Of a stretch of DNA of 32,000 nucleotides, positions 691 through 14,062 are shown piece after piece (position 1 is the stretch's first letter; each line of letters opens with the position of its first letter). The position numbers and the translations under genes are program-made. The notes below the pieces were generated by a model. It made no database searches. It was not told the origin of the DNA and saw only the letters and a list, made by a program, of their open reading frames with translations. Source of the stretch: an uncultured Rhodospirillaceae bacterium. GTDB taxonomy: Bacteria > Pseudomonadota > Alphaproteobacteria > Rhodospirillales > Casp-alpha2. The stretch covers positions 1-32,000 of the forward strand of contig CAJWCU010000029.1 of NCBI GenBank assembly GCA_913030825.1, read 5' to 3'.

Positions 691-2086
691 CGCAGCCGCC
701 CTCCCGGACTTGGTCCGGCATGCCTGCATCCTCCCTGTCATGGGATGCCTGCCGCGCGACCGCGGTCTCCTCAAAGGTCCCGCCCGTCGCCTCAAGGACA
801 GCAGACCGGCCCGTCAGGTCTTGCCACCTTCGGACCGACACATCCACGTAGCCTGGGGCCAGCTCCATACAGCGGGCCCGCCGGCCGACCTGTTCGGCCG
901 CCACCAGCGTCGTGCCGCTGCCCGCAAAGGCGTCCAGCACAAGGCCGCCCCGGTGCGAACAGTCGCGCATTGCGTCGGCCACCAGGGCCACCGGCTTCAC
1001 GGTCGGGTGCATGGCAAGCGCCTCAGCCCGGCCATCGTGAAGGCTGCTGACGCCCGGGTAGTCCCAGACGTTCGTCCGGTTGCGGCCATGGCAGCCCAGT
1101 TGGACGTTGTTCACATGCGGGGCCCGTCCCTTTTTGTAGACGAAGACAAGCTCGTGCTTGGAGCGGTAGAGCGAGCCCATGCCGCCGTTGTCCTTGTTCC
1201 AGACACAGAGGTTCTTGAGTTCCTGGTAGGCCTTTCGGCCGGCTGCGCCCAGTTCACCCAGGTGGCGCCAGTCCATGCAGATGAAGTGGATCGACCCGTC
1301 GACCGAGTTGTCCGCCAGGTGCCCGAGGGTCGTTTCCAGGAAAGCCTGGAACTCGCCCTCGGACATTTCCCCGGAGGCCATGGCGAATTCGTCATGGGCA
1401 TGCTTACCAAGCCCCGACACATGGCCATTGATCGGAACATTGTAAGGCGGGTCCGTGAATACCATTTGGGCTCGTTCGCCCTGAAGGAGCTTTTCGTAAG
1501 GCTCGGCTTCCAGAGCGTTACCGCAGATCAGCCGGTGCGGACCTAAGCACCAGACGTCGCCTGGCCGCGTGATGACATCGGTGGCTTTCGGCATCGCCGG
1601 CACGGCGTCCGCCTCGTCTGCGGGGTCTTCGCTGCCCTCAAGCAGAAGGTCGATCTCGGGCATGTCGAAGCCGGTCAACGTCACATCGAAAGCGACCTCT
1701 TCATCCAGCAGGAACTGGAGTTCATTTGCCAGAAGTTCAGGGTCCCAGCCGGCGTTCTCTGCAAGCTTGTTATCGGCGATGATGTAGGTACGGCGCTGTG
1801 CCTCACTCATGTCTTCCAAGCGGATGGTCGGCACCGATGCCAGACCCAGAAGCCGGCCGGCCTCGACGCGGCCGTGGCCGGCAATGATCCGGTCCTCCCC
1901 GTCGATCAGGACCGGGTTGGTGAACCCGAATTCCTCGATGCTGTCGGCGATCTGGCGGAGTTGTTTCTTGCTGTGGGTGCGGGGATTGCGTTCGTAGGGC
2001 TTGAGATCCGTGATGTTGCGGTAACGGACCTCAAGAGGCTCCCCGGAAGTTATCAAATCTTGTTTGGCGGAACGGTCGGCGGTCAT
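683..2086 (-). CDS. ParB-like nuclease domain fused to a beta-class DNA methyltransferase (N6-adenine or N4-cytosine)
   Basis: The N-terminus (YERNPRTHSKKQLRQIADSIEEFGFTNPVLID...IIAGHGRVEA) is a ParB/Srx-type domain. Motif IV FTDPPYN comes before motif I LDAFAGSGTTLVAAE, which is the beta-class order. Preferred start is ATG 2086 (MTADRS), preceded by GAAGGAGAAGG. The track start 2107 is also possible. Confidence 0.85.
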   Translation of the reverse strand: MTADRSAKQDLITSGEPLEVRYRNITDLKPYERNPRTHSKKQLRQIADSIEEFGFTNPVLIDGEDRIIAGHGRVEAGRLLGLASVPTIRLEDMSEAQRRTYIIADNKLAENAGWDPELLANELQFLLDEEVAFDVTLTGFDMPEIDLLLEGSEDPADEADAVPAMPKATDVITRPGDVWCLGPHRLICGNALEAEPYEKLLQGERAQMVFTDPPYNVPINGHVSGLGKHAHDEFAMASGEMSEGEFQAFLETTLGHLADNSVDGSIHFICMDWRHLGELGAAGRKAYQELKNLCVWNKDNGGMGSLYRSKHELVFVYKKGRAPHVNNVQLGCHGRNRTNVWDYPGVSSLHDGRAEALAMHPTVKPVALVADAMRDCSHRGGLVLDAFAGSGTTLVAAEQVGRRARCMELAPGYVDVSVRRWQDLTGRSAVLEATGGTFEETAVARQASHDREDAGMPDQVREGGCDV

Positions 2087-2441
2087 GGCCTTCTCCTTCA
2101 AGTTCAAGGAGAGCCCCGACGATCAATGTAAGTGATAAACGCGCGGGGCTCTGACATCTCTGCCAGCAGCCCCCGGCCGCTGTAGCCTTTGGGCCCCGCC
2201 CGCATTTAAGAAGCTCTCTCGACCGCCCCGCGTAACCAGAGCCCCGCCCTGGTACGAGATCCGCTTCGGCATGGCCCGATCATAGCGCGGGGGTTCAAGA
2301 GCCCAAAATGAAGAGCGCTCATATTTTGCACAATCTATTGTTTTGAATTGGGAATTTAGATTTCACGTCGTCCAAAATCGTGGACTTCGGCACGTGAACC
2401 CGTAACTTGAACGCGTCGAATCGGTAGAGACGGAGGGGCAA

Positions 2442-2843
2442 ATGGCCGACCGCATGACACTCGAGCGAGGCCGCTGGTACGCCTGGCAGATGCTGCCAGG
2501 GTATGTGAATGGCGCTTACTACTCACCGATTAGAGTGAATGAAGTTGAGCCCTTAAAGTCTGGGCAGTCGCGGATGAAACTCGACTATCTAAACGCGGCC
2601 TATGCCCAAGGGGTACAGTCTTTCAAAGATACCTTGCGCGTTCTTCTGCGCGCCGAGGATTACATGATCGTCGTTCGGGAGGAAGGGCAGGAACCCGCGA
2701 AAGTCCGGTCCGCGATCATCACCCCCATTACCTGGGACTGGTTGAGGCTGCATTTTGGTGGGTTTGTTCAAAACAACCGACCAAGACCCGACGAACTGTC
2801 CTCGGAAGGCCTCCGTGAATACCTTCAACGTGTCTTAACGTAG
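2442..2843 (+). CDS. Hypothetical protein (133 aa), no recognisable domain
   Basis: ATG preceded by GACGGAGGGGCAA (Shine-Dalgarno-like). First gene after the compositional drop at about 2300. I recognise no motif. Confidence 0.5.
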   Translation: MADRMTLERGRWYAWQMLPGYVNGAYYSPIRVNEVEPLKSGQSRMKLDYLNAAYAQGVQSFKDTLRVLLRAEDYMIVVREEGQEPAKVRSAIITPITWDWLRLHFGGFVQNNRPRPDELSSEGLREYLQRVLT

Positions 2844-3192
2844 TTTCGGGACCACGGCCGGGGCCAAATTTTTACTCCACATTCCGAAGACGATTTGTGG
2901 CGCGCCTACCGACTTCAATCGATCAGTGTACGGAACCGAACTTCAGAGCGGGGGAATTTCAGGGAGCACGGTCAAATCAAAGGGGCATTACTACACTTGG
3001 AGAGGTCGGGTTATTGGGTCAAAAACAGTATCTGGCGCTTCAGCGGGGACTTTGAATGTTCCAGTTTAGTTACCTCTGATCGCATAATTTGCGATCTGTA
3101 GGAAGAGCTTCAGAGCGCCAGAATAACTAGGCCCTAACAATGGGCCATTACGAAATTGGGGCCGATCATCTCCATTTGGATCAAAGGTGTGA

Positions 3193-4374
3193 TCATTTAA
3201 ATTTTTCAAAGTATCGGTTGATGCCATTCTCGAGAGCATTGACAGCTTTAGAATTACAGGTTTTTTGATCTCTAACGAATGTGTCGATGTCAGCGTCCGC
3301 CATGTTCACGATCTGCCCTATGCCCCCGAGTTTCCCGAACCATCTTCCGACGTCCTGTGATGATTTTGATTTTAACAGGGCGCCCAAGGCGTAGAGGCTA
3401 TATATGCCGTCGAGCGTTTTACGTTTTGCCTGATTGGAAGACGACAAAAATCGCCCGCAAGTTTGTTCAAGTCTCTTTGATGCCTTGATCACGTATATTG
3501 ATGTGAGGCTCTTTTCGGTGTCTTGCTGGTTCAACAGCGCCTTGTAGTTGGAATGATAAAGCCACTCCATGACGTGAGGAGCTTTGAACCTACTCTCAAC
3601 AAAATAAGTTGACTGGGTGTGTCCAGCGATTGGGCCTGACGATGTTTTTAACTGCGTGGTCACAGCGATCGAGAAAAAGACCGAAAACAGGCCCACCGCC
3701 AACCATGCACCGCCTCCGGCCCAATTGCGGCCACCTTTCAATCGCAAATACGTCCGCAATTGTTCGGACGTTTGATTGTGAAGTGCGCGGCCCACGCGCA
3801 GGGTCTTGAAAACAGCACTCCGATAGAAATAGTTGCCGAACAGCCCCATGAGCAAAAATGAAATCGAACCGGATGCCAGAAATCCAAGGATGATCGCGTC
3901 CCCTTTGACAACACCTTGACCCAAAAAGAGGACGGTCAGCAGGAAGTGAACGCTCGAAAAAACCGCAATCAGTGTAAGCGCGTGAATGTGCATTTTCCGA
4001 AAACCAAGCCAGATAGGCCCCAACAGACCCGCGACCCAATTGAAACTGATATTGGATCCCTTGATGGACATTTCCCGCCAGTGAACCCAATACCAGTCAT
4101 GATTTTCGCCGACCAGGTCCGCGGCATGATCTTTGGTCAAGGTCTCACCACGCCATTCGAGGGTGTCCTCAAATTTCGGTGTACCGGATTGCTGGCTTCC
4201 GTCGGACCTTGATGGGGAAGACGCCGACGCTTCATTCGGGTTGATGTTTCGGTTGTCTTCAGTCCGTTCCGAGTCGGCGCTTGGCGATTGGCTAAACACA
4301 AAACCGCAGTATGGACATTCATTCGGCGTACCGTAGGTCCGCTTTGAACATTCTGGGCAATCTATGTGAGACAC
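3193..4374 (-). CDS. Zinc-ribbon / DUF2628-like multi-pass membrane protein with an unknown C-terminal domain
   Basis: GTG start preceded by GGGGGAGG. The N-terminal CPECx(11)CPYC is a zinc ribbon, followed by a low-complexity S/P/E linker. FNWVAGLLGPIWLGFRKMH plus 3-4 hydrophobic helices resemble DUF2628. The roughly 150-aa C-terminal region is unassigned. Confidence 0.65.
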   Translation of the reverse strand: MSHIDCPECSKRTYGTPNECPYCGFVFSQSPSADSERTEDNRNINPNEASASSPSRSDGSQQSGTPKFEDTLEWRGETLTKDHAADLVGENHDWYWVHWREMSIKGSNISFNWVAGLLGPIWLGFRKMHIHALTLIAVFSSVHFLLTVLFLGQGVVKGDAIILGFLASGSISFLLMGLFGNYFYRSAVFKTLRVGRALHNQTSEQLRTYLRLKGGRNWAGGGAWLAVGLFSVFFSIAVTTQLKTSSGPIAGHTQSTYFVESRFKAPHVMEWLYHSNYKALLNQQDTEKSLTSIYVIKASKRLEQTCGRFLSSSNQAKRKTLDGIYSLYALGALLKSKSSQDVGRWFGKLGGIGQIVNMADADIDTFVRDQKTCNSKAVNALENGINRYFEKFK

Positions 4375-4433
4375 GTGCGCCTCCCCCTATATTGTTCAGT
4401 CAAATGTTTGGCTAAGTCGATTGAGCAGCGGGC

Positions 4434-5528
4434 TCACCTCTTTGGCCAAACCTTCTCCATCCCGTAGACAAAGAGGTCAACGTTCTTACCTGCGCCGTAG
4501 GCCTCTATCGCGAACATCCCCCGCGTCCCGGCCCTGCCACTAAATGACATCTGTACATTTGCGCAACGCTCCAGATTTTTTCTCAATAGATCCGAAAAAC
4601 GCTTCTTACGTTTCGATTTCACCCGCCATGAGACCTTCAATACCGTCGCGTTGAAGCGGTCGGAAACCTCATAGATTTTGCATTGGGCGCCTGCGGGGCA
4701 GTAGGTAGACGTCCAGAAAGGCGATGGCCAATACTTTGGCTCGCGCTTTTTCCCGATGAAATCCTTGAACCTGTTTTCGGACCCGGCCAATAGCCTGGCA
4801 GCCATGTCGCAGGTTTTCATGTGTTGAAGTAGTGCATCATCCGAATAGTCTGTTTGCTCGTTTTTCTTCTTTGAAGACTCCTCGGTTTTCGAAGGGGCAC
4901 TGCTCCCGACTTTCTCCAGCGCGAACCAAGGCGTCGTTCGAATGAGGCGAACAAATTCCAGGTCGCCAAACAGGCTCTTGATTTCCGTGGTCGACAGCTT
5001 GCCGGTGAATGAATACGAACGCTCTCCCTTGAACATCAGATTGAGCCCGTGTTTTTTCGCTAGACTGATCGCTCTGTCATTCGCGACACGCTTGCCGTCT
5101 GATTTTGCGTCTCGAATTGCCAGGAACTCGAACGACCATTTCCCCGCCGAACCGTTCGGCGAGATTTTGGCGTAGAGCATTTCGTTGTTCTTGAAGGCTT
5201 TATCTTTTGTGTCGAACAAAAGCAAAAAACCGGGTGTTGCAAGAGGCAGCACATAGAATGGAAAGATTTTCTTCGATTTCGATTTGTCATCCCGAACGCT
5301 TAGTGTGTAGGCGCCATTCCCGCCTTGGATCAAGACGACTTCACCGGACGGTTTGCCGACTTCATCAAATGATTTGTACTTCCCCGGCAGGCCCCGGATC
5401 GTTGCGAGATCCGATTTCACGATCGTCGGCCGCGGACTTCCGATGCAGCCGTAAAGGAGCATGCCCGCAAGAATGAGTGCCAGGACGGCAAGGCTTCGTT
5501 GCACAAGGAAATTGGCGGTTCGGATCAT
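4434..5528 (-). CDS. Putative lipoprotein (364 aa), function unknown
   Basis: ATG preceded by GGGAAAGAGAG. Signal peptide with a lipobox-like LLYGC (MIRTANFLVQRSLAVLALILAGMLLYGCIGS). It lies 59 nt upstream of, and is co-oriented with, the zinc-ribbon membrane gene, and is divergent from the TIR gene. Confidence 0.6.
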   Translation of the reverse strand: MIRTANFLVQRSLAVLALILAGMLLYGCIGSPRPTIVKSDLATIRGLPGKYKSFDEVGKPSGEVVLIQGGNGAYTLSVRDDKSKSKKIFPFYVLPLATPGFLLLFDTKDKAFKNNEMLYAKISPNGSAGKWSFEFLAIRDAKSDGKRVANDRAISLAKKHGLNLMFKGERSYSFTGKLSTTEIKSLFGDLEFVRLIRTTPWFALEKVGSSAPSKTEESSKKKNEQTDYSDDALLQHMKTCDMAARLLAGSENRFKDFIGKKREPKYWPSPFWTSTYCPAGAQCKIYEVSDRFNATVLKVSWRVKSKRKKRFSDLLRKNLERCANVQMSFSGRAGTRGMFAIEAYGAGKNVDLFVYGMEKVWPKR

Positions 5529-5743
5529 AGTCTCTCTTTCCCTGGTCGATGCTAGTTATACTAATGCGGCGACGTAAGCGCCAAGCGTTTATGCTCACTA
5601 AGAATAGATACGCAAGGATTTAAAGCAAAATTTACAAGTAAAGAATGTGCAGAATAACCTGCTTCCTTTACGAGCTTATGGATCCTGACTATCATTTTTT
5701 TGTGAAGAGCCTGCTCCGCATTTAGGCTGATCCTGGAGATAGA

Positions 5744-8677
5744 ATGAGCACCCCAGAGGCGACCAAAAGAAAGGTTCACCGGTACAAGGCGTTTATCAGT
5801 TATCGCCATGTGGACAGAGACCGCCGTTGGGCCAAGTGGTTGATTGACGGTCTTGAGACCTACCGCGTTCCCAAGGAACTGGTGGCCTCCGGCTATCCCA
5901 CCCGAATTGGTACCCTGTTTCGCGATGACGAGGAAATTCCCGCATCGCCGGATCTTTCCAATCAAATTGAAGACGCCCTGGATGACAGCGAATTCCTGAT
6001 CGTTATCTGCTCGCCCGATACGCCCGCGTCACAGTGGGTCCGGCGGGAGATAACCTATTTTCAGGAGCAGGGACGGGGTGACCATATATTGCCGCTCCTG
6101 GTCGAAGGCGAGCCGTCCGACTCCTTCCCGCCCGAGTTGCGATTTGCAGAGCGTGAAGTGACGGACGCCGACGGAAATGCCTCCAAGGTCCGCGAAGAGA
6201 TTGAACCGCTGGCGGCTGACGTGCGCGCCCGGACGGACGAGCCGAAAAAAGCGACGGAGCACCGCGCCCTGATCCGGATTGCCGCGGGGCTCCTTCGCTG
6301 CCGGTTCGATGACCTTGCCCAAAGAGATGCACAACGCGAAGCAAAACGCAGACGGATGGTTATTTCAGCTGCGGCCACATGCCTTGTCGCCGCCATCTCC
6401 AGCGGACTCTATTGGTGGGATCAAACCCGCATAAAGACGAGTTATTACGCCAACTTCGGAACGAAATGGGGCGTGCCGTTTGGCGTTGGGAGACTGGATA
6501 AAGAGACTCAGAAGCAGAGGCACTCCAGCTTCGCCATAGACACCCGAGGGGGACGCATCGTTGAAATGCGGCATGTCAATGGCCTGGGGTTTCCGCGCAA
6601 ACTTTCTCCACAATCAGCGCACTCAATTTCCCACCCGTGGCTTAATGGAGGTGAAAGGTGGCTATTTGAATTCGCTGACGATGGGCGTCTACGGAAGGTG
6701 AGCCAAATCAACTCGAAAGACCCCCGTAGACAACTCGCCTCGGGCGCCCAGAATTTTCTCGTGTTCAGGTTTGAATACCTCGCCGACAAAAACGCGGTTG
6801 TTTCGTTCAGAACTGAAGGAAGAACCAAAACGCTGGCAGCGGGAGCGTTCACGATAAGTCGTGAAAACAACCGCAACTCCAGCTCGTCTATAACGAGCCA
6901 CACAAACATTGCACAACACAGATTGGCGTTCGACAACTCGGGCTTCATTGTCTCTCGTCAGTTTGAAACCGAGACTGGGCAGCCCACCAGTGAGTTGTCG
7001 GGAAGCTACGGGAGAAAGTATTTCTACGATGAAAGGGGCCTTGTTTCCGCATTTGGGAACTTGAACCGGTCAGGAAGGCTGATGGCTGAACACGGCGGGG
7101 TGATGACGGTTCAATTTCAATACGATACCCAAGGCGACCTCATAAAAACTATCTATCTCGACAAAAAGGGAAGACCGCTGAGAAACCAAAAGTGGCTCCC
7201 GAAAATTGAGTTTAAAAGATCGCCAGTGGGGAATGTGTTGGAAGCATCCTATTTTTCCATTGATGGACGGCTCGGAACCAATGGAGAAGGGTACTCACGT
7301 GAGGTAAAAACTTATGACAGGCACGGCAACATGACCCGCCGCCGTCTTTTCCATGCGGACGGGAATCCCGCGGTGCACGATAAATATGGGTACTCGATGC
7401 AGACGTGGGAGCACAATTTTAGAGGGCAAGTCGTCCGAACCTCTTTTTACGACGACGAGTTGCAGCCTATCGTTCTGCCGAGCCTTGGATTCGCGCAATC
7501 AAAGAAAACATACGATGAGCGCGGAAACACAATAGAAGAATCATATCTAGATACCGGAGGGATGCTGCTCCGTCAAAAATGGGGATATGCGAAAGTCAAA
7601 TTTTCATACGACGCATTGGACCGGATAACTGAAATTATTTATTTCGATGTCGATAACGCGCCAACACAAGAAAGTCGCGGGTTTGCCAGCCTGAAGTGGA
7701 AATATGATGCCCAAGGAAATCGTATTCGTGAGAGTTACTATGACGCGGAAGGAAATTTGACCGAAAACGCTCGTGGAGTGGCGTCGCAGAGCTGGGCCTA
7801 TACGCCCAGAGGGAGCGTAAAAGAGACCAGTTTTTTCAACCAAGCAAACGAATTGGTCACCCCCGGCAAGCCCAATTGGGCGCGGAAGGTTTGGCGATAT
7901 GACCATCGAGGAAACGCAAAGGAAGTCTCATTTTATGGACCAGCTGGACAGCCAGTGCTCTCGAAAAATGGTTGCGCCAAATACGAAAGAGATTTTAACG
8001 ACGCCGGAAAAGTAACGAGAAAAATTTGCGTTGGAACGGATGGGCAACCAAAGCTCGGTACAAACAAGGCTGCTTATACGGAAATCGACTTTGACCAAAA
8101 AGGAAATAAAATCCAAGTTACCTACAAAGACACCCGGGAGCAACTCACACTGTCAGTGTTTGGTTATGCCCGGGTAGTTCAGAAATATGATGAGCTGAGT
8201 CGGTTGACCGAAAGGTCATATTTTGACGTAAATGGGAATTATATTGAACATAAGAAGCAGGGATTCGCGCGCCTGATCAAAAAGTATGACACCTTTGGAA
8301 ATTTGGTCGAAGAAGCATTTATAGGTAAAAATGGTAAATTGATTCAACCGTCAGGCAAAAATTACGCGCGGTTTATTGAAAAATACAATGATCAAAATCA
8401 AACAATCGAAGAAGCCTATTATTCGGCTGATGGTAAACTCGCGATAAATACCGAGTGGGAGTTTGCCCGCAAGCTGACGATCTATGACGATCAGAACAGG
8501 GTCATACGCGAATCTTTTTTCGGCGATGGCGGAGAGCCGATCCTCTACGAAGGCGTCTTCCACCATTTAGAAAGGCAATACAACCAAGATGGAAAATTGG
8601 TTGCGTTGAGGTCGCTGAATAAATTTGGAAAGGTTGTATTTGTAAATCGAGATGAGTCGTTTCTATCGCAATGGTAA
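5744..8677 (+). CDS. Membrane-anchored TIR-domain protein: N-terminal TIR, single TM helix, C-terminal YD-like repeat ectodomain (977 aa)
   Basis: ATG preceded by GGAG. TIR signature YKAFISYRHVDRD...LFRDDEEI...SEFLIVICSPDTPASQWVRREI. A PLAADVR juxtamembrane helix and KRRR precede the hydrophobic MVISAAATCLVAAISSGLYWW. About 750 aa follow, with a regular YDxxGN...Y.D..G...G.A repeat. Confidence 0.85.
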   Translation: MSTPEATKRKVHRYKAFISYRHVDRDRRWAKWLIDGLETYRVPKELVASGYPTRIGTLFRDDEEIPASPDLSNQIEDALDDSEFLIVICSPDTPASQWVRREITYFQEQGRGDHILPLLVEGEPSDSFPPELRFAEREVTDADGNASKVREEIEPLAADVRARTDEPKKATEHRALIRIAAGLLRCRFDDLAQRDAQREAKRRRMVISAAATCLVAAISSGLYWWDQTRIKTSYYANFGTKWGVPFGVGRLDKETQKQRHSSFAIDTRGGRIVEMRHVNGLGFPRKLSPQSAHSISHPWLNGGERWLFEFADDGRLRKVSQINSKDPRRQLASGAQNFLVFRFEYLADKNAVVSFRTEGRTKTLAAGAFTISRENNRNSSSSITSHTNIAQHRLAFDNSGFIVSRQFETETGQPTSELSGSYGRKYFYDERGLVSAFGNLNRSGRLMAEHGGVMTVQFQYDTQGDLIKTIYLDKKGRPLRNQKWLPKIEFKRSPVGNVLEASYFSIDGRLGTNGEGYSREVKTYDRHGNMTRRRLFHADGNPAVHDKYGYSMQTWEHNFRGQVVRTSFYDDELQPIVLPSLGFAQSKKTYDERGNTIEESYLDTGGMLLRQKWGYAKVKFSYDALDRITEIIYFDVDNAPTQESRGFASLKWKYDAQGNRIRESYYDAEGNLTENARGVASQSWAYTPRGSVKETSFFNQANELVTPGKPNWARKVWRYDHRGNAKEVSFYGPAGQPVLSKNGCAKYERDFNDAGKVTRKICVGTDGQPKLGTNKAAYTEIDFDQKGNKIQVTYKDTREQLTLSVFGYARVVQKYDELSRLTERSYFDVNGNYIEHKKQGFARLIKKYDTFGNLVEEAFIGKNGKLIQPSGKNYARFIEKYNDQNQTIEEAYYSADGKLAINTEWEFARKLTIYDDQNRVIRESFFGDGGEPILYEGVFHHLERQYNQDGKLVALRSLNKFGKVVFVNRDESFLSQW
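5783..6118 (+). other. TIR domain (residues ~14-125), candidate catalytic Glu102 at 6047-6049
   Basis: FISY start motif, DDEEI loop and the SQWVRRE motif. In characterised bacterial TIR NADases, the Glu after the conserved Trp is the catalytic position. Assignment is by motif only. Confidence 0.75.
6356..6418 (+). other. Predicted transmembrane helix of the TIR protein (residues ~205-225)
   Basis: A 21-residue hydrophobic stretch preceded by REAKRRR. The positive-inside rule places the TIR domain in the cytoplasm and the repeats outside. Confidence 0.65.
6929..8674 (+). repeat. About 18 tandem protein-level repeats of 32-33 aa (96-99 nt), YD/RHS-like beta-hairpin type
   Basis: (Y/F)(D/N)xxG anchors at residues 396, 428, 460, 492, 524, 557, 590, 622, 654, 686, 719, 751, 783, 815, 848, 881, 914 and 946. 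The spacing is always 32 or 33. The copies are diverged at the DNA level. Confidence 0.8.
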
Positions 8678-8814
8678 TTGGGTCATTTTTCGCGATGTCG
8701 CGTCGCGGTGTTAGACGACTTTGATGAAATTCGATGATCGACCTGGTTCGCGGGCGACCCTAAACTGAAAAATTGATTGTCTGACTGTTAAATCGTATCT
8801 GCGGTAGCAATTCG

Positions 8815-11295
8815 ATGTTGAACCGAAAATTGGATGTAATCGTCTGGGCGATCCTGGGCGGTTTGGCGATTGCCAGTATCGGCCTCAGTTTCTGGGGTTG
8901 GTTTCAGTTCGAGACCGGCCGCCAGACCGAAATGACGGCCGGCGTCTGGTTGGATATCGCGGCGAGGACGATCTCTTTCTTTTTTGCCGAGCGGCCGGAC
9001 GTGGACATCCCGGGCACCGGCGTCGCCGTGCCGCCCGGATATATCTCGCTCAACATTGCTCGCGTACTGGCGCCGACGGCGACCATGGGCGCGATCCTGC
9101 GCGTGGCGATTGAGTTCTTTTTCGGCCAGATCAGGGCCTCCCGCGTTCGGAACATGAAAGGCCATACGGTCGTCAGCGGCCTGTCGGATAACGGTTTGGC
9201 CTTCGCCAGGTCGGAAGCGGCGATGGGGCGTAAGGTCGTCATCGTTGGTCCGGAAGAGAACAGCTCCGCGGCATTTCTCGGCAGCCTTCATGGTTTTGAA
9301 TTCGTGTTGGGCGATCCCAGGGAGATTGAAGTTTTGCGCGCCGCGGGCGTTGGCGAAGCAAGGAATCTTGTGAGTGTTTTGCCGGATGACGGCGACAATC
9401 TCGAGGTCGCCATGCTCGCACGGAAAATCGTCGAGAAAGACCGAAAGGCAGCCGAACCTCTGCTGGTCAACGTCGCGATCGCAAATCGCCGGCTCTGGCG
9501 CCAGATCGTCCGCTCAGACGCGATCGAGCGAAGCCATGGCAAGTTCGAGATGCTGCCGTTCAATTTGGCCATCTGGGCGGCCCGACAGTTCACCTGGCGG
9601 GAGCCGCTTTGGGGGTATGCCGCATTGCGGGGTCAAAAAAAAATTCATGCCGTGTTCATTGGCTTTGACGAATATGCGGAGGCAATGATCGGGCAGATCC
9701 CGCCCGCCTGTGTGGCCGGCGACCTGGAGCGTCCGGCGTTTTCGATTTTGACCGGCCAGGAAAAATTCGCTCGGGGGAGTCTCGCCCAATCCTACGATCA
9801 GTTGGCCGAGGTTTGCGACATTACCTACCATCATTTCGAGCCGCGCATGTTTTCACTGACCGAAACCTTGATGGAAACCGTATCCGAGGTTGGCGAGGTG
9901 ACAGCCGTCTTCGTCTGCCTCGATGATGAAGAAGAATCCCTTGGCGCCGCCATTCATGTTCAAGACGTCATGCACCGCACGGGGCAATGGGGCGCTCCGG
10001 TTTATCTGAGATTGGCTAAGTGCGAGGGCGTTGGCGATCTTCTGGTTGATTCCGCGCGCGCCCGTAGGTTCTCGGAAGTGATACAGCCCTTTGGTGTTGA
10101 AGATGAACTCTGCAGCCTGGATGCTGTCGAAGGCAGGCTCGAAAAATTGGCGAGAGCGATCCATGTCGCTTACGAGGCATCCCGCGATGCCAGTGTGTTT
10201 ATCGATGATCCCGAACGCAGCTCCGCGACCCTTTCCGATTGGCGCAGCCTTCCGGAAACGTTTCGGGTGTCCAACCGGCGGGCAGCCGACAATATTCAAG
10301 CCAAATTGTGGAGTTGCGGCAGCTATGTCCCCGTGGGGACAAAATTGGATGCGTGCAAAGGCTTTCAAATGGCGTCGTCACCGGCAGTGCTGGAAGAACT
10401 GGCAGAACTTGAACACCGGTCGTGGGTCGCCGGGCGCTACGTTGACGGCTGGCAGTATGGCGATCACCGGGATGACCGCCGGAAAAGGCATCCGAACATG
10501 GTTGCCTATTCGGAATTGGATGAACCGACCAAGGAATTCGACAGGGACCAAATTCACTTGATCGACAAAACGCTGATCAACCGGCCGGACAATGCGCCTT
10601 CGAACGAGTTGATCCGAGTGGACCATTGGATCGGCCTCATCGGCAAGAACCTTGTACACGCAGAAGAAGTCCCGTGGATAAAGGAACAATGTACCGCGTT
10701 CCTGTCGACGTTCGTGGAGAAGCGACCCGATTGCCACGTTACTTTGGTCACTCCACTTGCGCCGGGGTCCGACTTTATTCTCGCTTCCGGGGCGCTTGCA
10801 TACCTGAAAGAAAAGGGTGTCCCGCATCGGCTTTTGGTTGTCGCGGCCGTGCCTTCGGAGCACATGATCGAAGACTACCGGGAGAATTTTGAGAACGGCG
10901 GAGTCTGGGATGGGGAGGATTCTGTCCGAAGTGACAAGTCATGGACCGGGGGCGATGGAGATGGTCAGCGCGACTTAATTAGGAAGCACCGGGATAAGAT
11001 CATTGCCTCTGAAGCGACCGAATGGGTTATCGACTTGACGGACGCAGAGGCTGACTACAGAGAGCAGACGAGCCGCCAAGCAGGGTATCGAACGGCAGCA
11101 GACTATATCGCCACCCGGGCGCACACTCTTATTGCCGTGCACCGTCCGGAACCTGGCGACAGGGGGGCAAAAATGGGCGGGACGGAAGACACATTGCGTC
11201 GGCGCCCGGACTTGTTGGTCCGTCGTCCCGATACAATATATCGAAACGTGGTTTTTGATTTGCAGGCGTGTGGAGTGAGCGAAGACGATTTGTAG
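8815..11295 (+). CDS. Membrane protein: 2-TM pore-like module + RCK/TrkA-N-like domains + RyR domain + C-terminal SLOG/LOG-like domain (826 aa)
   Basis: N-terminal hydrophobic helices VIVWAILGGLAIASIGLSFWGWF and ISLNIARVLAPTATMGAILRVAIEFFF flank WLDIAARTISFFF. Rossmann-like GHTVVSGLSDNGLAF...KVVIVGPE...NLVSVLPDDGDNLEVAMLARKI. RyR motif LAELEHRSWVAGRYVDGWQYGDHRDDRRKRHPNMVAYSELDEPTKEFDRDQ. The C-terminal strands HWIGLIG, VTLVTPLAPGSDFILASGAL, LLVVAAVP and TLIAVH...MGGTEDT resemble LOG/SLOG (PGGxGTxxE-like). There is no clear SD, so the start is uncertain. Confidence 0.8.
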   Translation: MLNRKLDVIVWAILGGLAIASIGLSFWGWFQFETGRQTEMTAGVWLDIAARTISFFFAERPDVDIPGTGVAVPPGYISLNIARVLAPTATMGAILRVAIEFFFGQIRASRVRNMKGHTVVSGLSDNGLAFARSEAAMGRKVVIVGPEENSSAAFLGSLHGFEFVLGDPREIEVLRAAGVGEARNLVSVLPDDGDNLEVAMLARKIVEKDRKAAEPLLVNVAIANRRLWRQIVRSDAIERSHGKFEMLPFNLAIWAARQFTWREPLWGYAALRGQKKIHAVFIGFDEYAEAMIGQIPPACVAGDLERPAFSILTGQEKFARGSLAQSYDQLAEVCDITYHHFEPRMFSLTETLMETVSEVGEVTAVFVCLDDEEESLGAAIHVQDVMHRTGQWGAPVYLRLAKCEGVGDLLVDSARARRFSEVIQPFGVEDELCSLDAVEGRLEKLARAIHVAYEASRDASVFIDDPERSSATLSDWRSLPETFRVSNRRAADNIQAKLWSCGSYVPVGTKLDACKGFQMASSPAVLEELAELEHRSWVAGRYVDGWQYGDHRDDRRKRHPNMVAYSELDEPTKEFDRDQIHLIDKTLINRPDNAPSNELIRVDHWIGLIGKNLVHAEEVPWIKEQCTAFLSTFVEKRPDCHVTLVTPLAPGSDFILASGALAYLKEKGVPHRLLVVAAVPSEHMIEDYRENFENGGVWDGEDSVRSDKSWTGGDGDGQRDLIRKHRDKIIASEATEWVIDLTDAEADYREQTSRQAGYRTAADYIATRAHTLIAVHRPEPGDRGAKMGGTEDTLRRRPDLLVRRPDTIYRNVVFDLQACGVSEDDL
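8836..9123 (+). other. Putative degenerate 2-TM ion-channel pore module (residues ~8-103)
   Basis: The order TM1 / short helix WLDIAARTISFFF / loop AERPDVDIPGTG / TM2 mirrors K-channel M1 / pore helix / filter / M2 placed ahead of an RCK domain. No TVGYG filter is present. Confidence 0.4.
10387..10569 (+). other. RyR (ryanodine-receptor type) domain, residues ~525-585
   Basis: Matches the RyR consensus as I remember it: LAExxHxxW...GWxYGxxxDxxxKxHPxxVxYxELxExxKExDR. An upstream half-repeat (LARAIHVAYE...WRSLPETFRVSNRRAADNIQAKL) precedes it. Confidence 0.8.
10621..11214 (+). other. SLOG/LOG-like Rossmannoid domain (putative nucleotide-ligand sensor), residues ~603-800
   Basis: A beta-alpha pattern with a glycine-rich loop after strand 2 (PLAPGSD) and a C-terminal GGTEDT motif, as in LOG/DprA/YpsA/ThsA-SLOG folds. 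Motif-level call only. Confidence 0.5.
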
Positions 11296-11322
11296 ACATT
11301 GGAACAGCCACGAGCCGATCGT

Positions 11323-12363
11323 TCAGAACAAATTGGCATGCACCTGTTGTCTCGCGGCCTGCCTCGCAAGGCCCAGAAGGCGGTCAACCATTTCCGGTCG
11401 ATCAAGTTGCGCGAGAACTTCCAACTCCTTTTGCGTGACGTCGGCGCCAATATTGGAACGCAGCCATTCCCGATCCAGTTTAATGTCAAATCGCTCGTAC
11501 TTGAATAGCGGCGGCGCGGCCGGCAGTTCGTTCGCCAATGTTCCAGCCTCACTGTCGATCTCCCAGGGGTTCTGACTGGTTCCCAACCACTGGAGGATCG
11601 CCTGCGCCTGCCACATGGTGTCGGTGATCATGGATTCCAGCGCGTGGATCGCTTGAAGGCTGCTCGGCAAGCGTAAGAATGACGTGACTGTATGCTGCGG
11701 CGTGTAGATCCCCGTACCCACGGAAAATATCGACAGGTTTTCAGGGCCTGATGGCCAGCCGTACCCGTAGGCTTTTGACGTAGCCATCGTCGCCAGCAAC
11801 AGGGCTGGGTTGTTGTATGGGCTGACCCCACCGTCAACGAAGAGTCCGCGAAATTCCTCGGTAACCTGGATTTCTTCTGGTTCAAAGTAGGTCGGCGCCG
11901 CCGTGCTTGCTCGGAGAATCTGGGCAATCTCGTAGTCGCGGTTTGCGAAGGCACCTGGATCATCTTCAGGCGGGTCGAAATATTTTGACCGCGGGTTGTT
12001 GTGAAAGACCCAGGGGCTCCCCGTGTCGATCCGCTTTGCCGCGATAGCCAGTCCTGTTCGCACCTCGTCGGACCCCAGCCTGCGGTGTCCGATCATTTTC
12101 CGGATGATGCGATCTACATTCTCGCCTTTGAACTTCGGAGAGAGGATGCCCCCGTGCCACCGAGAACCCTCAAACGCATCTTTTGCCAGTATGCGATACG
12201 TTTCAAGCAGGTCCGCAACAGAAAACCCGAGTGCAAGACCCGCCGCGATTGTCGCGCCCGCGGATGTTCCGCCGATCAAATCGAAATAATCACACAGCCG
12301 GAAATCCGGGCCACCGCCTTCTTGATTGCGTAGTACGTTTTCGACCTCTTCTAGAAACCCCAA
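11323..12363 (-). CDS. Patatin-like phospholipase (CapV-like size); the true N-terminus lies upstream of the track start
   Basis: GTSAG (GxSxG) at 12256-12270 and FVDGGVSPYNNP (the catalytic Asp of the DGG motif). The track start is a TTG at 12363. The same frame stays open upstream to 12486 and encodes KRVLSIDGGGVRG (12373-12393), the patatin oxyanion-hole motif. No ATG, GTG or TTG precedes that motif in frame. Convergent with the 826-aa gene, with a 27-nt gap. Confidence 0.85.
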   Translation of the reverse strand: MGFLEEVENVLRNQEGGGPDFRLCDYFDLIGGTSAGATIAAGLALGFSVADLLETYRILAKDAFEGSRWHGGILSPKFKGENVDRIIRKMIGHRRLGSDEVRTGLAIAAKRIDTGSPWVFHNNPRSKYFDPPEDDPGAFANRDYEIAQILRASTAAPTYFEPEEIQVTEEFRGLFVDGGVSPYNNPALLLATMATSKAYGYGWPSGPENLSIFSVGTGIYTPQHTVTSFLRLPSSLQAIHALESMITDTMWQAQAILQWLGTSQNPWEIDSEAGTLANELPAAPPLFKYERFDIKLDREWLRSNIGADVTQKELEVLAQLDRPEMVDRLLGLARQAARQQVHANLF

Positions 12364-12486
12364 CGCGACGATTCCTCGGACGCCGCCGCCGTCGATCGAA
12401 AGGACGCGTTTAGGTCCCGGGCCGAATAAGTGATCTTCAAGATTTGGAATGATATGTCCCCCACACGCGCGCCATTTTACGAGCGC

Positions 12487-12669
12487 TTAGATATCGTCTT
12501 TCGGTGAATTCTTGTGTTTTGCGGTATTCCGCGCGGACTTGATGGCGTTTTTGAGGTTATTGGAGAAGAACTCAATCGTCTCTGCGTGTTCGATGAGGAC
12601 ATCGTATGCCCTATCGTTTGGTGATTGATGATTGAAGGCTTCCTGAATAACCAAGGCTGCGTCCAGCAT
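12487..12669 (-). CDS. Small hypothetical protein (60 aa), doubtful
   Basis: ATG ORF MLDAALVIQEAFNHQSPNDRAYDVLIEHAETIEFFSNNLKNAIKSARNTAKHKNSPKDDI. Its TAA stop is in the same frame as the patatin ORF. No recognisable domain. Confidence 0.3.
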   Translation of the reverse strand: MLDAALVIQEAFNHQSPNDRAYDVLIEHAETIEFFSNNLKNAIKSARNTAKHKNSPKDDI

Positions 12670-12926
12670 TTCGCCAGCCGCCTTTAAGACGTTGCCATCA
12701 TGGAGCCCTTACATAATTTCGCCCATTGTCGGGCCATCGGATTCAGCGAAAGCTCGGTCCGCTTGAGGGTGCATTTGCACGACGTTCCCGCGCTCTTCTT
12801 CATCTTTCGCCATCTTTGCGCTTCGTCCTTATTGAATGTTCGTTAAGAGAATCCCCCCCAACTGATCAGGTCTTCGCTAACAATTCTCTTGGCTGGGTCT
12901 GAGCGGCCAGCGTGACGCCCAATGAG

Positions 12927-13013
12927 TGACCCGCCCCTCACTGACTGGTCCAGTTAGAATGTTAGTGCATTGACCTGCCCCCACTGACTGGTCCGGTTTG
13001 AATGTTAGTGCAT
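12927..13013. repeat. Tandem duplication (44 + 43 bp, ~90% identical) of an IS terminal repeat
   Basis: Copy A (12927-12970): TGACCCGCCCCTCACTGACTGGTCCAGTTAGAATGTTAGTGCAT. Copy B (12971-13013): TGACCTGCCCCCACTGACTGGTCCGGTTTGAATGTTAGTGCAT. Copy B overlaps the last codons of the transposase fragment. Confidence 0.8.
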
Positions 13014-13640: not shown

Positions 13641-14062
13641 TCAGTAACCGACAAAGAACCTGTGCCTCACGCCACTGATTCAGTTTTATAGGATCAGGGA
13701 CGCAGGAAGTTTCAGGAGCAGGTTCTTAATGCCTGAAATGCAATGGTATCCCCCGCAACAACAGAATAATTCCCTGATATTCTGTTTAGGGAAATGACCT
13801 GAGGAACGGTCGGAACGTAAGGCTTGCCCTCATAGGTTTGGATCCAATTCGCCGGAAGATCATCAACTTCCCTGTATCTTCCCTGCCGATCAAGGAATTT
13901 ACCCCAGGAAAACTAGAGAGACCGGTTCGCCTCAGGCTGCGCCCACCACCATCACTTCCAAGACACTGATATTTCAAAGAATTACTACAAGTCGACAAGC
14001 ACAAACCTGGGCACCGCGCATGTCCGCATATGACCCAAAGCAGATTCTACGCCCTGATCCGG

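What the first reader, a model, noticed from the sequence alone, without database searches (positions are those of the whole stretch)
5744..8677. Toll-like-receptor-style topology in a bacterial TIR protein: cytoplasmic TIR, one TM helix, ~750-aa extracytoplasmic repeat domain
Seen in sequence:
- There is no signal peptide.
- The TIR domain spans residues ~14-125.
- A charged helix ending in KRRR immediately precedes the only hydrophobic helix (205-225).
- The remaining 750 residues are beta-rich repeats.

By the positive-inside rule, the TIR domain faces the cytoplasm and the repeat domain faces the periplasm or cell surface. The protein is therefore built like a receptor (repeat ectodomain / TM / TIR), with type II orientation.

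Most characterised bacterial defence TIR proteins are cytosolic sensors. An envelope-facing sensor would imply detection of an extracellular or periplasmic cue, such as phage adsorption or ejection, envelope damage or a competitor toxin.
Basis: partly seen in the sequence, partly recalled or inferred. Interest (0 to 1): 0.7.

Follow-up and report, generated by a model that had tools for sequence, protein, structure and literature searches.

The report
Membrane-anchored bacterial TIR receptor-like protein
This gene most likely encodes a membrane receptor with an NAD-cleaving TIR enzyme inside the cell and a large repeat domain outside the inner membrane, one member of a very large unstudied family, and here it sits beside a channel-like protein whose ryanodine-receptor-type domain should bind the TIR product.

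Summary
ORF 5744..8677 (+) encodes 977 aa with four parts. The first is an N-terminal TIR domain (Pfam TIR_2, E 9e-15). The second is a conserved linker. The third is the protein's only hydrophobic helix (205-225), preceded by KRRR. The fourth is about 23 regular YD/Rhs-type beta-hairpin repeats (AlphaFold2 pLDDT 90.6).

The N-in/C-out reading holds across the family. The TIR-linker-helix module defines at least 2,597 clusters (E<=1e-30). In 124 of 127 members with a clear helix, K+R is higher before the helix than after. The C-terminal sensor swaps between YD, WD40, TPR, FGE-sulfatase and a peptidoglycan-binding domain. The TIR catalytic Glu (E102) is the only invariant residue in 107 homologs.

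New here: the downstream gene (8815..11295) encodes a membrane-anchored protein resembling the GsuK channel and TrkA ring in its tandem RCK (TrkA_N) domains. It also carries a RyR Repeat12 domain with the four residues shown in 2026 to bind or cleave 2'/3'cADPR. A CapV-like patatin phospholipase follows. RyR-domain genes recur next to membrane TIRs in distant phyla.

Best reading: a Thoeris-like signalling system whose TIR is wired to a periplasmic sensor. Topology, enzyme activity, cue and defence role are all predicted, not shown.

The parts
5744..8677 (+). Whole gene for the TIR / linker / TM helix / YD-repeat protein (977 aa)
   Evidence: ORF. Domains. AlphaFold2 pLDDT 90.6 and pTM 0.75. 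Homologs.
5783..6142 (+). TIR domain (residues ~14-133). The predicted catalytic Glu is E102, in the motif SQWVRREI.
   Evidence: Pfam TIR_2 E 9e-15. E102 is the only invariant column in 107 homologs. It aligns with the Glu of the W-x-x-x-E motif of flax L6 and of TIR-STING.
6143..6355 (+). Conserved juxtamembrane linker (residues ~134-204): a beta-hairpin at 134-152, a helix at 168-184, and the charged start of the long helix, which ends in KRRR
   Evidence: Secondary structure. It is 49% identical across the 16 closest homologs. It is conserved together with the TIR in the WD40, TPR and FGE-sulfatase variants.
6356..6418 (+). Predicted transmembrane helix (residues 205-225), followed by the aromatic-belt residues YWW-D
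   Evidence: It is the only hydrophobic segment. Its position is conserved and the charge bias is positive-inside in 124 of 127 family members.
6419..8674 (+). Predicted extracytoplasmic domain (residues 226-977): about 23 YD/Rhs-type beta-hairpin repeats. It has no Rhs protease motif and no C-terminal toxin.
   Evidence: Strand pattern. Foldseek best matches are Rhs cores, teneurins and TcB/TcC at E 1e-25 to 1e-14, but with TM-score only 0.13-0.27. Repeat register and absence of a DPxG motif.
8815..11295 (+). Candidate partner (826 aa). Domains in order: an N-terminal membrane helix plus two further helices; tandem RCK/TrkA_N domains (~118-400); a RyR Repeat12 domain (~505-590); and a Rossmann-like C-terminal domain (600-826) of unknown family.
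   Evidence: Pfam TrkA_N and RyR. AlphaFold2 pLDDT 85. Foldseek matches GsuK, TrkA, MthK, Slo1 and RyR3 Repeat12. H534, W537 and H559 are invariant and D576 is >=90% conserved in the 16-sequence alignment A4; adding the two locus homologs (A3) leaves H559 at >=90%. Their spacing matches the cADPR-contacting residues of RyDEP. Homologs lie directly downstream of membrane TIRs in L010, L011 and L082.
11323..12363 (-). Patatin-like phospholipase, convergent with the partner gene; candidate effector
   Evidence: Pfam Patatin E 1.2e-22. Best NCBIfam matches are the CBASS cGAMP-activated phospholipase (1.4e-23) and an anti-phage phospholipase (2e-19); both fall below the curated cut-offs. A patatin gene also lies next to the partner homolog in L081 and L083.

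Best explanation
The gene encodes a type II single-pass inner-membrane protein that works as a receptor-coupled TIR NAD+ glycohydrolase or cyclase.

Proposed mechanism:
1. The catalytic TIR domain and a conserved juxtamembrane linker lie in the cytoplasm.
2. The ~750-aa YD-repeat domain lies in the periplasm and acts as the sensor.
3. A periplasmic or envelope cue changes the arrangement or clustering of the ectodomains.
4. That change passes through the continuous linker-TM helix and lets the TIR domains self-associate. Known TIR enzymes need this association to form an active site.
5. The active TIR cleaves NAD+ into an ADP-ribose-derived signal such as 2'/3'cADPR, or simply depletes NAD+.
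6. In this locus the signal is read by the downstream membrane protein, through its RyR Repeat12 domain and perhaps its NAD-binding-type RCK domains.
7. A CapV-like patatin phospholipase provides the membrane-damaging output.

Shown here: domain content, structure models, conservation of the catalytic and ligand-binding residues, family-wide topology signals and recurrent gene adjacency.

Inferred: membrane insertion and orientation, enzyme activity, product identity, the cue, the coupling to the partner, and the physiological role (anti-phage or other conflict).
For: - TIR domain with an invariant catalytic Glu.
- A single conserved hydrophobic helix with positive-inside bias across the family.
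- Conservation falls along the protein: TIR 66%, linker 49%, TM 33%, ectodomain 28%.
- The module is fused to swappable C-terminal domains: YD, WD40, TPR, FGE-sulfatase, PDZ-tailed YD and PG_binding_1.
- The family holds at least 2,597 clusters at E<=1e-30.
- The YD ectodomain model is confident and resembles only secreted or surface YD proteins.
- The partner has a GsuK/TrkA-like tandem RCK and a RyR Repeat12 domain.
- The partner's H534/W537/H559/D576 are conserved at 90-100%: invariant or nearly so in A4, and H559 and D576 at >=90% in A3. Their +3/+25/+42 spacing matches H75/W78/H100/D117 of RyDEP. In RyDEP those residues contact 3'cADPR-derived ADPR, and RyR-domain proteins there bind or cleave 2'/3'cADPR (PMC13232231).
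- RyR-domain genes lie within a few kb of the membrane-TIR gene in 7 of 80 genome loci from Pseudomonas, Chitinispirillaceae, Lentisphaerae, Planctomycetia and Firmicutes. L086 and L082 add two more.
- Other nucleotide-signalling genes sit in these neighbourhoods: RelA_SpoT-SLOG-RyR, TPR-S-cyclase and DUF4231.
- No terminator-like site lies in the 137-bp gap between the TIR gene and the partner gene.
- The locus sits in a low-GC island.
Against: - No experiment and no dedicated topology predictor was available.
- This protein's helix is marginal on the Hessa scale (+1.9 kcal/mol).
- Half of the family carries classical WD40 propellers, and some carry TPR_10/12 arrays. In other bacterial conflict systems these domains are usually cytoplasmic, so the C-out reading is less intuitive for them.
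- The three close YD-type homologs whose contexts were annotated (P0007, P0015, P0028) have no RyR or phospholipase gene nearby and are flanked mainly by metabolic and transport genes; a PI-PLC-X gene lies upstream of P0007. The partner is therefore not obligatory and a defence role is not general.
- PADLOC models gave only a weak TIR hit and nothing for the neighbours.
- The partner's second and third N-terminal helices are not very hydrophobic and have no K+ selectivity-filter motif. A pore is therefore not established.
- The partner's RyR domain keeps the His/Asp pair that is catalytic in RyDEP, so it could degrade the signal and not sense it.
Confidence: 0.62

Rival explanations
1. It is a stand-alone membrane-tethered TIR NADase. 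The same N-in/C-out receptor acts as its own effector by depleting NAD+ on activation. The adjacent RyR/RCK and patatin genes form a separate or merely co-resident system.
For: The three close YD-type homologs with annotated contexts (P0007, P0015, P0028) have no RyR or phospholipase partner; flanks are mainly metabolic and transport genes, plus a PI-PLC-X gene near P0007. The partner-plus-patatin pair also occurs with a different upstream gene, an nSTAND1-TPR protein, in L081. Many characterised TIR effectors kill by NAD+ depletion alone (established knowledge: SARM1, TIR-STING, TIR-SAVED).
Against: A partner homolog lies directly downstream of a membrane TIR in three independent lineages: the window, P. 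fluorescens HK44 (L010) and the gammaproteobacterial MAG L082. RyR-domain genes are enriched next to membrane TIRs across phyla. The RyR domain keeps the cADPR-contacting residues.
Confidence: 0.2
2. It is a non-immune envelope or cell-contact signalling receptor built like a teneurin: a type II protein with an outward YD domain. It would report envelope state, peptidoglycan status or neighbour contact through an NAD-derived second messenger, not phage attack.
For: Teneurins share the type II topology and the YD repeats (topology from established knowledge). Another membrane TIR with the same layout carries a peptidoglycan-binding domain. The three homologs with annotated contexts lie outside defence islands. 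The C-terminal domain set (WD40, TPR, FGE-sulfatase) recalls, from memory and untested here, bacterial receptor Ser/Thr kinases; one source labels this protein COG0515.
Against: In this window the gene sits in a low-GC island with a ParB-methylase gene and a CapV-like patatin. Neighbourhoods elsewhere include SLOG, TPR-S-cyclase, DUF4231 and STAND genes, which are typical of conflict systems.
Confidence: 0.13
3. It is an Rhs-type polymorphic toxin or secreted effector. The YD repeats would form a delivery shell and the TIR would be an NADase toxin aimed at other cells.
For: The best structural matches are T6SS Rhs cores and Tc toxins. NAD-degrading toxins exist in interbacterial competition (established knowledge).
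Against: - The TIR is N-terminal and lies outside the repeats.
- There is no C-terminal toxin.
- There is no Rhs aspartyl-protease motif (no DPxG).
- No PAAR, VgrG or immunity gene lies nearby.
- TM-scores to Rhs cocoons are only 0.13-0.27.
- The internal signal-anchor with positive-inside bias retains the TIR in the producer's cytoplasm.
Confidence: 0.02
4. The hydrophobic segment is not a membrane helix but a buried oligomerisation helix, and the whole protein is cytosolic, like other TIR-repeat sensors.
For: The hydrophobicity of this particular helix is marginal. WD40 and TPR sensor arrays in related proteins are usually cytosolic.
Against: - The segment has 21 uncharged residues, flanked by KRRR on one side and a YWW aromatic belt on the other.
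- Family median on the simple Hessa sum is -0.57 kcal/mol, and Kyte-Doolittle values reach 2.99.
- The sequence is variable while the hydrophobicity is kept.
- The PG_binding_1 variant exists.
- The partner protein is itself membrane-anchored.
Confidence: 0.03

Closest known systems
Thoeris ThsB and the wider set of TIR-based signalling defence systems (types I-XI; Sorek-lab preprint 10.64898/2025.12.03.692087)
   Same: - A TIR_2/ThsB_TIR-type domain with the catalytic Glu.
- It is adjacent to candidate effectors of classes already listed for predicted or validated Thoeris types: ion channel (type X), 'SLOG Patatin' and TM proteins.
   Different: - ThsB proteins are small and, from memory, cytosolic; the preprint passages retrieved mention transmembrane helices only for effectors, and no term tied to a membrane-anchored TIR or a RyR domain was found.
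- This TIR is fused through a TM helix to a 750-aa predicted periplasmic sensor.
- PADLOC ThsB models hit only weakly (E 0.024).
- No defence phenotype has been tested.
Animal Toll-like and IL-1 receptors
   Same: Single-pass membrane proteins with an outward repeat domain and a cytoplasmic TIR. Activation by ectodomain-driven TIR association is the proposed logic here too.
   Different: - The orientation is opposite: type I with a C-terminal TIR in TLRs, type II with an N-terminal TIR here.
- TLRs use LRR or Ig ectodomains, not YD repeats.
- TLR TIRs are scaffolds, whereas this one keeps the catalytic Glu.
- No common origin of the architecture is implied.
Teneurins and bacterial Rhs/Tc YD-shell proteins
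   Same: YD-type beta-hairpin repeats (Foldseek E 1e-25 to 1e-14). Teneurins are also type II membrane proteins with the YD domain outside (established knowledge).
   Different: - The repeat period of about 32 aa is very regular.
- TM-scores are low (0.13-0.27), so a closed cocoon is not demonstrated.
- There is no plug, no aspartyl-protease motif and no encapsulated C-terminal toxin.
- The cytoplasmic domain is a TIR enzyme.
[quoted passage not shown]
   Same: The partner gene's RyR domain matches RyR1/2/3 Repeat12 at E 1e-20 to 1e-26. It keeps the His/Trp/His/Asp set at the same spacing as the RyDEP residues that contact the cADPR-derived ligand.
   Different: - Here the domain is host-encoded.
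- It is fused to a membrane anchor, tandem RCK domains and a further Rossmann-like domain.
- It sits next to the TIR gene, which suggests signal reception or buffering and not viral evasion.
- Binding has not been tested.
GsuK / MthK / TrkA RCK-regulated K+ channels and transporters
   Same: The partner has two Rossmann-type RCK domains after N-terminal membrane helices. Its top Foldseek match is GsuK bound to NAD.
   Different: - There is no TVGYG-type selectivity filter.
- The loop 58-76 is poorly predicted and not conserved.
- Helices 2 and 3 are weakly hydrophobic.
- Channel function is therefore uncertain.

Membership tests
TIR domain NAD+ glycohydrolases/cyclases (Pfam TIR_2 / ThsB_TIR) | Sequence match to the TIR profile above the curated threshold | tested here: met
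   TIR_2 scores 55.7 bits against a cut-off of 28. ThsB_TIR scores 35.5 bits against 21.2.
TIR domain NAD+ glycohydrolases/cyclases (Pfam TIR_2 / ThsB_TIR) | Catalytic glutamate in the alpha-C helix (the W-x-x-x-E motif) | tested here: met
   E102 (WVRREI) is the only invariant column in 107 homologs. It aligns with the motif Glu of L6 and TIR-STING.
TIR domain NAD+ glycohydrolases/cyclases (Pfam TIR_2 / ThsB_TIR) | NAD+ cleavage activity and identity of the product | not testable with these tools
   This needs an enzyme assay with LC-MS.
Thoeris-type defence system | TIR gene in an operon with an effector that carries a domain binding the TIR-derived signal | tested here: inconclusive
   The adjacent gene has a RyR domain with conserved cADPR-contacting residues, and a patatin follows. 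The pairing recurs in L010, L011 and L082. However, P0007, P0015 and P0028 lack it.
Thoeris-type defence system | Match to curated ThsB or defence-system models | tested here: not met
   In PADLOC, ThsB1 hits at E 0.024 and SAVED_TIR at 3.7e-5 only, and the neighbours have no hits. NCBIfam Thoeris type III ThcB4 scores 15.4 bits against a cut-off of 220.
Thoeris-type defence system | Protection against phage | not testable with these tools
   This needs plaque assays.
Rhs / YD-repeat polymorphic toxins | YD repeats | tested here: met
   RHS_repeat scores 31.5 bits against a cut-off of 22, and YD_repeat_2x scores 28.4 against 15.8, both as whole-protein sums. Foldseek matches Rhs cores at E 1e-25.
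Rhs / YD-repeat polymorphic toxins | Closed cocoon with an Rhs core aspartyl-protease motif (DPxGL...DPxG) and a C-terminal toxin | tested here: not met
   There is no DPxG motif and the protein ends inside the repeats. TM-scores to cocoons are 0.13-0.27.
Single-pass type II membrane receptor (N-in, C-out) | One hydrophobic helix of TM length, no cleavable signal peptide, and positive-inside charge bias | tested here: met
   Before-over-after K+R bias holds in 124 of 127 family members.
Single-pass type II membrane receptor (N-in, C-out) | Experimentally mapped topology | not testable with these tools
   This needs PhoA/LacZ or split-GFP fusions. No TMHMM, DeepTMHMM or SignalP was available.
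RyR Repeat12 / RyDEP nucleotide-binding domain (partner gene) | Pfam RyR match and conserved His/Trp/His/Asp ligand residues | tested here: met
   RyR scores 53.2 bits against a cut-off of 27.4. H534, W537, H559 and D576 are invariant or >=90% conserved. Their spacing equals that of RyDEP H75/W78/H100/D117.
RCK-gated K+ channel (partner gene) | Pore helix plus selectivity-filter signature between two TM helices | tested here: not met
   There is no TVGYG-like motif. The loop is variable and has low confidence.

The most novel reading that the evidence does not exclude
Bacteria possess a very large, unstudied class of true transmembrane TIR receptors. An extracytoplasmic sensor domain (YD, WD40, TPR, FGE-sulfatase or peptidoglycan-binding) controls a cytoplasmic TIR enzyme. 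In a subset, including this locus, the TIR's cADPR-type product gates a membrane RCK protein through a ryanodine-receptor Repeat12 domain. That would be a prokaryotic counterpart of both Toll-like-receptor logic and the animal cADPR-RyR axis, and it would sense events at the envelope before or without cytoplasmic invasion.
Probability: 0.3. Interest if true: 0.9.

Novelty: new variant of a known kind. Interest (0 to 1): 0.72.

Why it matters
- **Sensing outside the cytoplasm.** In the TIR systems covered by the papers read here, the cue is phage infection and membrane helices are described only for effectors; that the TIR sensors themselves are cytosolic is recalled knowledge. A TIR wired through the membrane to a periplasmic sensor would extend TIR signalling to cues outside the cytoplasm, such as phage adsorption or ejection, cell-wall damage or competitor attack. 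It would be a bacterial example of receptor-type TIR activation.
- **Scale.** The module is abundant: at least 2,597 clusters at 50% identity across many phyla. I found no paper that describes it.
- **A testable link to RyR domains.** The recurrent link to host-encoded RyR-domain proteins matters because RyR domains were shown in 2026 to bind 2'/3'cADPR. The link gives a concrete hypothesis for what bacterial RyR domains do. It also bears on the long-debated connection between cADPR and ryanodine receptors.

Tried and rejected
- **Alignment too diverse for a locus search.** A1 (107 sequences) was too diverse. A smaller alignment, A2, was used instead.
- **The window's own contig.** It could not be retrieved by exact protein look-up. 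The organism is known only as a marine Tara Oceans scaffold.
- **Model coordinates.** AlphaFold coordinates are not exposed, so I could not decide whether the YD domain is a closed cocoon or an open ribbon. The low TM-scores and the matches to OspA single-layer sheets hint at an open form.
- **Partner C-terminal domain (residues 600-826).** I suspected a SLOG fold from its 'LAPGSD...GGT' motifs. Pfam, NCBIfam and a profile search of PDB sequences found nothing, so the SLOG label is dropped.
- **Isochorismatase genes.** They occur near both the window locus and L082 and looked like a possible nicotinamide-salvage link. They share only 28% identity over 65 aa, and the window's best match is RutB-like, so this is coincidence.
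- **Window neighbours.** The upstream lipoprotein-like and DUF2628 genes have no counterparts in the 80 genome-scan loci (L001-L080).
- **Literature.** Searches for a described membrane-anchored bacterial TIR with YD or WD40 domains found none.
- **Burroughs et al. 2015 (NAR).** The paper was not held.
- **Rhs-toxin reading.** It was rejected on motif and architecture grounds.

Full report
**1. Checking the observation**

The ORF at 5744..8677 (+) is real. It starts at ATG, encodes 977 aa and has a GGAG 8 nt upstream.

- Pfam places a TIR_2 domain at residues 17-143 (E 9e-15) and ThsB_TIR at 17-116.
- A Kyte-Doolittle scan finds one hydrophobic window only. It starts at residue 205 (MVISAAATCLVAAISSGLY, 1.77), and nothing at the N-terminus resembles a signal peptide.
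- The helix is preceded by AQREAKRRR and followed by YWWDQ.
- K+R count is 8 in residues 185-205 and 3 in 226-246.
- An AlphaFold2 model built on 107 homologs is confident (mean pLDDT 90.6, pTM 0.75).
- The model shows a TIR fold (14-133), a hairpin (134-152), a helix (168-184) and one continuous helix (188-228) that contains the hydrophobic stretch.
- About 23 two-strand hairpins follow, from 231 to 968, with a period of about 32 residues.
- The repeat consensus is YDxxGNxxExxxFGxDGxPxLxxxGxAxxxxx.
- Whole-protein sums pass the RHS_repeat and YD_repeat thresholds.

**2. What the protein is**

*TIR domain.* E102, in SQWVRREI, is the only invariant column among 107 homologs. It aligns with the Glu of the W-x-x-x-E motif in flax L6 and in TIR-STING. 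From established knowledge this is the catalytic glutamate of TIR NADases (SARM1 E642, WVHKEI). The family is therefore under selection as an enzyme, not only as a scaffold.

*Ectodomain.* Foldseek's best matches in the PDB are T6SS Rhs cores, Tse15, teneurins and TcB/TcC (E 1e-25 to 1e-14). TM-scores are only 0.13-0.27, and single-layer OspA sheets come next. The repeat type is thus YD/Rhs, but a closed cocoon is not shown. There is no DPxG protease motif and no C-terminal toxin, because the protein ends inside the repeats. It is not an Rhs toxin.

**3. Topology tested at family level**

- *The 120 best full-length homologs.* Most have a hydrophobic helix at residues 175-215, with 5-9 K/R just before it and 0-3 after. 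This includes proteins whose C-terminal part is WD40, TPR or FGE-sulfatase instead of YD.
- *Family size.* I searched residues 1-230 against 1.84 billion cluster representatives. This gave 15,707 hits at E<=1e-3, 9,966 at <=1e-10 and 2,597 at <=1e-30. The best 150 all align through to about residue 225.
- *Helix and charge bias.* In those 150, 127 have a Kyte-Doolittle value >=1.6 at the homologous position. Of the other 23, 21 score 1.30-1.59 and two 254-aa, probably truncated sequences score 0.75 and 1.06. K+R averages 6.3 before the helix and 2.6 after, and before exceeds after in 124 of 127.
- *Hessa scale.* On a simple sum this protein's helix is marginal (+1.9 kcal/mol, with the next-best segment at +13). 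The family median is -0.57.
- *Conservation gradient.* Identity to the 16 closest homologs falls from 66% (TIR) to 49% (linker), 33% (helix) and 28% (repeats). This fits a conserved signalling module, a membrane anchor that is variable in sequence but always hydrophobic, and a fast-evolving sensor.
- *C-terminal domains.* Of 58 randomly chosen representatives, 29 carry WD40 propellers. Others carry TPR, PQQ/BamB-like propellers, PDZ-tailed YD or FGE-sulfatase domains.
- *The most telling variant.* L082 holds a 290-aa protein with a TIR, then KKKK, then a TM helix (160-182, Kyte-Doolittle 2.3), then PG_binding_1. A peptidoglycan-binding domain can only meet its ligand outside the inner membrane.

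Together with the cytoplasmic location of NAD+, these results support N-in/C-out. The nearest relatives of both genes are proteobacterial. The repeat domain would therefore be periplasmic and not on the cell surface.

**4. Genomic context**

*The window.* The gene lies in a low-GC stretch, about 0.46-0.60 between 2 and 16 kb against about 0.64 in the flanks. A ParB_N-DNA-methylase gene sits at one edge. The next gene (8815..11295) starts 137 bp downstream, with no terminator-like site between them.

*The downstream partner.*
- It encodes 826 aa with TrkA_N and RyR domains.
- Its AlphaFold2 model has pLDDT 85 and pTM 0.82.
- The model shows a long hydrophobic N-terminal helix and two further helices.
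- These are followed by two Rossmann-type RCK domains, a helical RyR domain and a C-terminal alpha/beta domain.
- Foldseek's top matches are GsuK (including the NAD-bound form), the TrkA ring, MthK, Slo1 and RyR3 Repeat12.
- The RyR segment matches RyR1/2/3 Repeat12 and the Bacteroides RyR-like protein at E 1e-12 to 1e-26.

*Why the RyR domain matters.* A May 2026 preprint (PMC13232231) shows that phage RyR-domain proteins (RyDEP) bind 2'/3'cADPR, and that one cleaves it. It names H75, W78, H100 and D117 as the ligand-contacting and catalytic residues, conserved across PF02026. In the partner family H534 and W537 are invariant in both alignments. H559 is invariant in A4 and >=90% conserved in A3. 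D576 is >=90% conserved in both. The spacing is the same (+3, +25, +42). I did not have the RyDEP sequence, so the correspondence rests on spacing and on the shared Pfam model.

*The patatin.* The gene convergent with the partner (11323..12363) is a patatin. Its best NCBIfam matches are the CBASS cGAMP-activated phospholipase (1.4e-23) and an anti-phage phospholipase (2e-19). Both fall below the curated cut-offs.

**5. Is the pairing conserved?**

*Seen from the TIR side.* Among 80 genome loci recovered with the family alignment (at least 525 exist), a homolog of the partner lies directly downstream in two:
- Pseudomonas fluorescens HK44 (L010), with 31% identity over 749 aa;
- a Chitinispirillaceae MAG (L011).

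RyR-domain ORFs lie within a few kb of the TIR gene in 7 of the 80 loci: L010, L011, L025, L031, L041, L043 and L063. These span Proteobacteria, Fibrobacterota-related bacteria, Lentisphaerae, Planctomycetia and Firmicutes. One more occurs near the YD-type homolog P0003 (L086).

Other nucleotide-signalling genes accompany these loci:
- RelA_SpoT-SLOG(LSDAT_prok)-RyR in L011;
- RyR followed by TPR-S-cyclase upstream of a TIR-TM-TPR gene in L025 and L031;
- DUF4231 proteins in L083 and L086.

*Seen from the partner side.* Only 16 homologs were found. Three contexts were retrieved:
- nSTAND1-TPR | partner | patatin (L081);
- TIR-TM-PG_binding_1 | partner (L082);
- patatin | partner, with TIR-STAND genes nearby (L083).

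The conserved core therefore looks like the RyR/RCK protein plus a patatin, with an exchangeable upstream sensor or signal-generator gene. In three lineages that gene is a membrane TIR.

*Against generality.* The three close YD-type homologs with annotated contexts (P0007, P0015, P0028) have no RyR or phospholipase partner. Their flanks are mainly metabolic and transport genes, plus a PI-PLC-X gene upstream of P0007. PADLOC recognises nothing in the neighbours.

**6. Mechanism (inference marked)**

*Shown:* architecture, conservation of the catalytic and ligand-binding residues, family-wide topology signals and recurrent adjacency.

*Inferred:*
1. The periplasmic YD domain senses a cue.
2. The resulting change in ectodomain arrangement is passed through the continuous linker-TM helix.
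3. The TIR domains associate, as known TIR enzymes require, and cleave NAD+ to an ADPR-type signal.
4. The partner's RyR domain, and possibly its NAD-type RCK domains, binds the signal.
5. The membrane protein and the CapV-like patatin compromise the membrane.

*Uncertainties:*
- The partner's N-terminal helices lack a selectivity-filter motif and are only weakly hydrophobic after the first. 'Channel' is therefore a hypothesis.
- The RyR domain keeps the His/Asp dyad that is catalytic in RyDEP, so it could terminate the signal and not read it.
- For orphan family members, NAD+ depletion by the TIR alone is the simplest output.

**7. Comparison with what is known**

- *Thoeris-type TIR signalling.* The logic is closest to this. 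A 2025 preprint lists ion-channel (type X), 'SLOG Patatin' and TM effectors. In the passages retrieved it mentions transmembrane helices only for effectors, and searches of it for membrane-TIR and RyR terms found nothing relevant.
- *Toll-like receptors.* The resemblance is architectural only, and the orientation is inverted.
- *Teneurins.* Their type II topology with an outward YD domain is the closer structural analogy.
- *Literature.* I found no paper describing bacterial TIR-TM-YD or TIR-TM-WD40 receptors. Database annotations call them only 'TIR domain-containing protein'.

I rate this a new variant of a known kind.

**8. Verdict**

- The specific cue and the defence role remain open.
- The added finding raises the interest. 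This is the recurrent link between membrane TIRs and host RyR-domain proteins, in a locus with an RCK membrane protein and a CapV-like phospholipase.

Noticed in passing
window 8815-11295 (+): An 826-aa protein with a membrane helix, tandem RCK/TrkA_N domains, a RyR Repeat12 domain and an unassigned Rossmann-like C-terminal domain (600-826, motifs LAPGSD and GGT). Only 16 homologs were found in 5.8 billion proteins. The RyR ligand residues are conserved.
   Followed up: yes
window 11323-12363 (-): A patatin-like phospholipase whose closest curated families are the CBASS cGAMP-activated lipase and an anti-phage phospholipase. A patatin gene also lies beside the RyR/RCK gene in L081 and L083.
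   Followed up: partly
window 2000-16000: A low-GC stretch (0.46-0.60, against about 0.64 in the flanks). A ParB_N-DNA-methyltransferase gene at 683-2107 (-) sits at its edge, which suggests a horizontally acquired island. No tRNA gene is present in the window.
   Followed up: partly
window 3193-4374 (-) and 4434-5528 (-): Two genes lie divergent from the TIR gene. One is a zinc-ribbon plus DUF2628 multi-pass membrane protein. The other is a 364-aa protein with a lipoprotein-like signal (…LLYGC). Neither has a counterpart in the 80 genome-scan loci (L001-L080).
   Followed up: partly
L032 8416-9939 and 29 other loci (e.g. L033, L037, L048, L027, L028): In Lachnospiraceae and other Firmicutes the TIR-TM-WD40 gene lies next to a ~500-aa DHH/DHHA1 phosphoesterase-like gene, in either orientation. 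It could degrade nucleotide signals, or the adjacency could be plain synteny among related genomes.
   Followed up: partly
L011 6076-17243: A Chitinispirillaceae locus with four genes in a row: RelA_SpoT-SLOG(LSDAT_prok)-RyR; an FtsW/RodA-like multi-pass membrane domain fused to a C-terminal TIR; TIR-TM-YD; and TrkA_N-RyR.
   Followed up: partly
L025 6408-11077 and L031 7202-16774: A conserved same-strand run of three genes in a Lentisphaerae MAG and a Planctomycetia MAG: a small RyR-domain protein, a TPR-S / MAP3K_TRAF_bd-adenylate/guanylate cyclase protein, and a TIR-TM protein (TPR repeats in L025; the 2,280-aa L031 protein's C-terminal part was not scanned).
   Followed up: partly
L082 6932-7804: A 290-aa TIR-TM-PG_binding_1 protein lies directly upstream of a 51%-identical homolog of the window's RyR/RCK gene, in a gammaproteobacterial MAG.
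   Followed up: yes
L083 4875-6788 and L086 9807-11768: Proteins of ~640-650 aa with a weak DUF4231 match lie beside the RyR/RCK gene (L083) and beside a TIR-TM-YD gene (L086). From memory, DUF4231 belongs to the SLATT clan of 2TM effectors.
   Followed up: no
P0092 and P0095 (homologs): Some TIR-TM-YD homologs carry three more strongly hydrophobic helices at the extreme C-terminus. Their repeat domain would then be tethered to the membrane at both ends.
   Followed up: no
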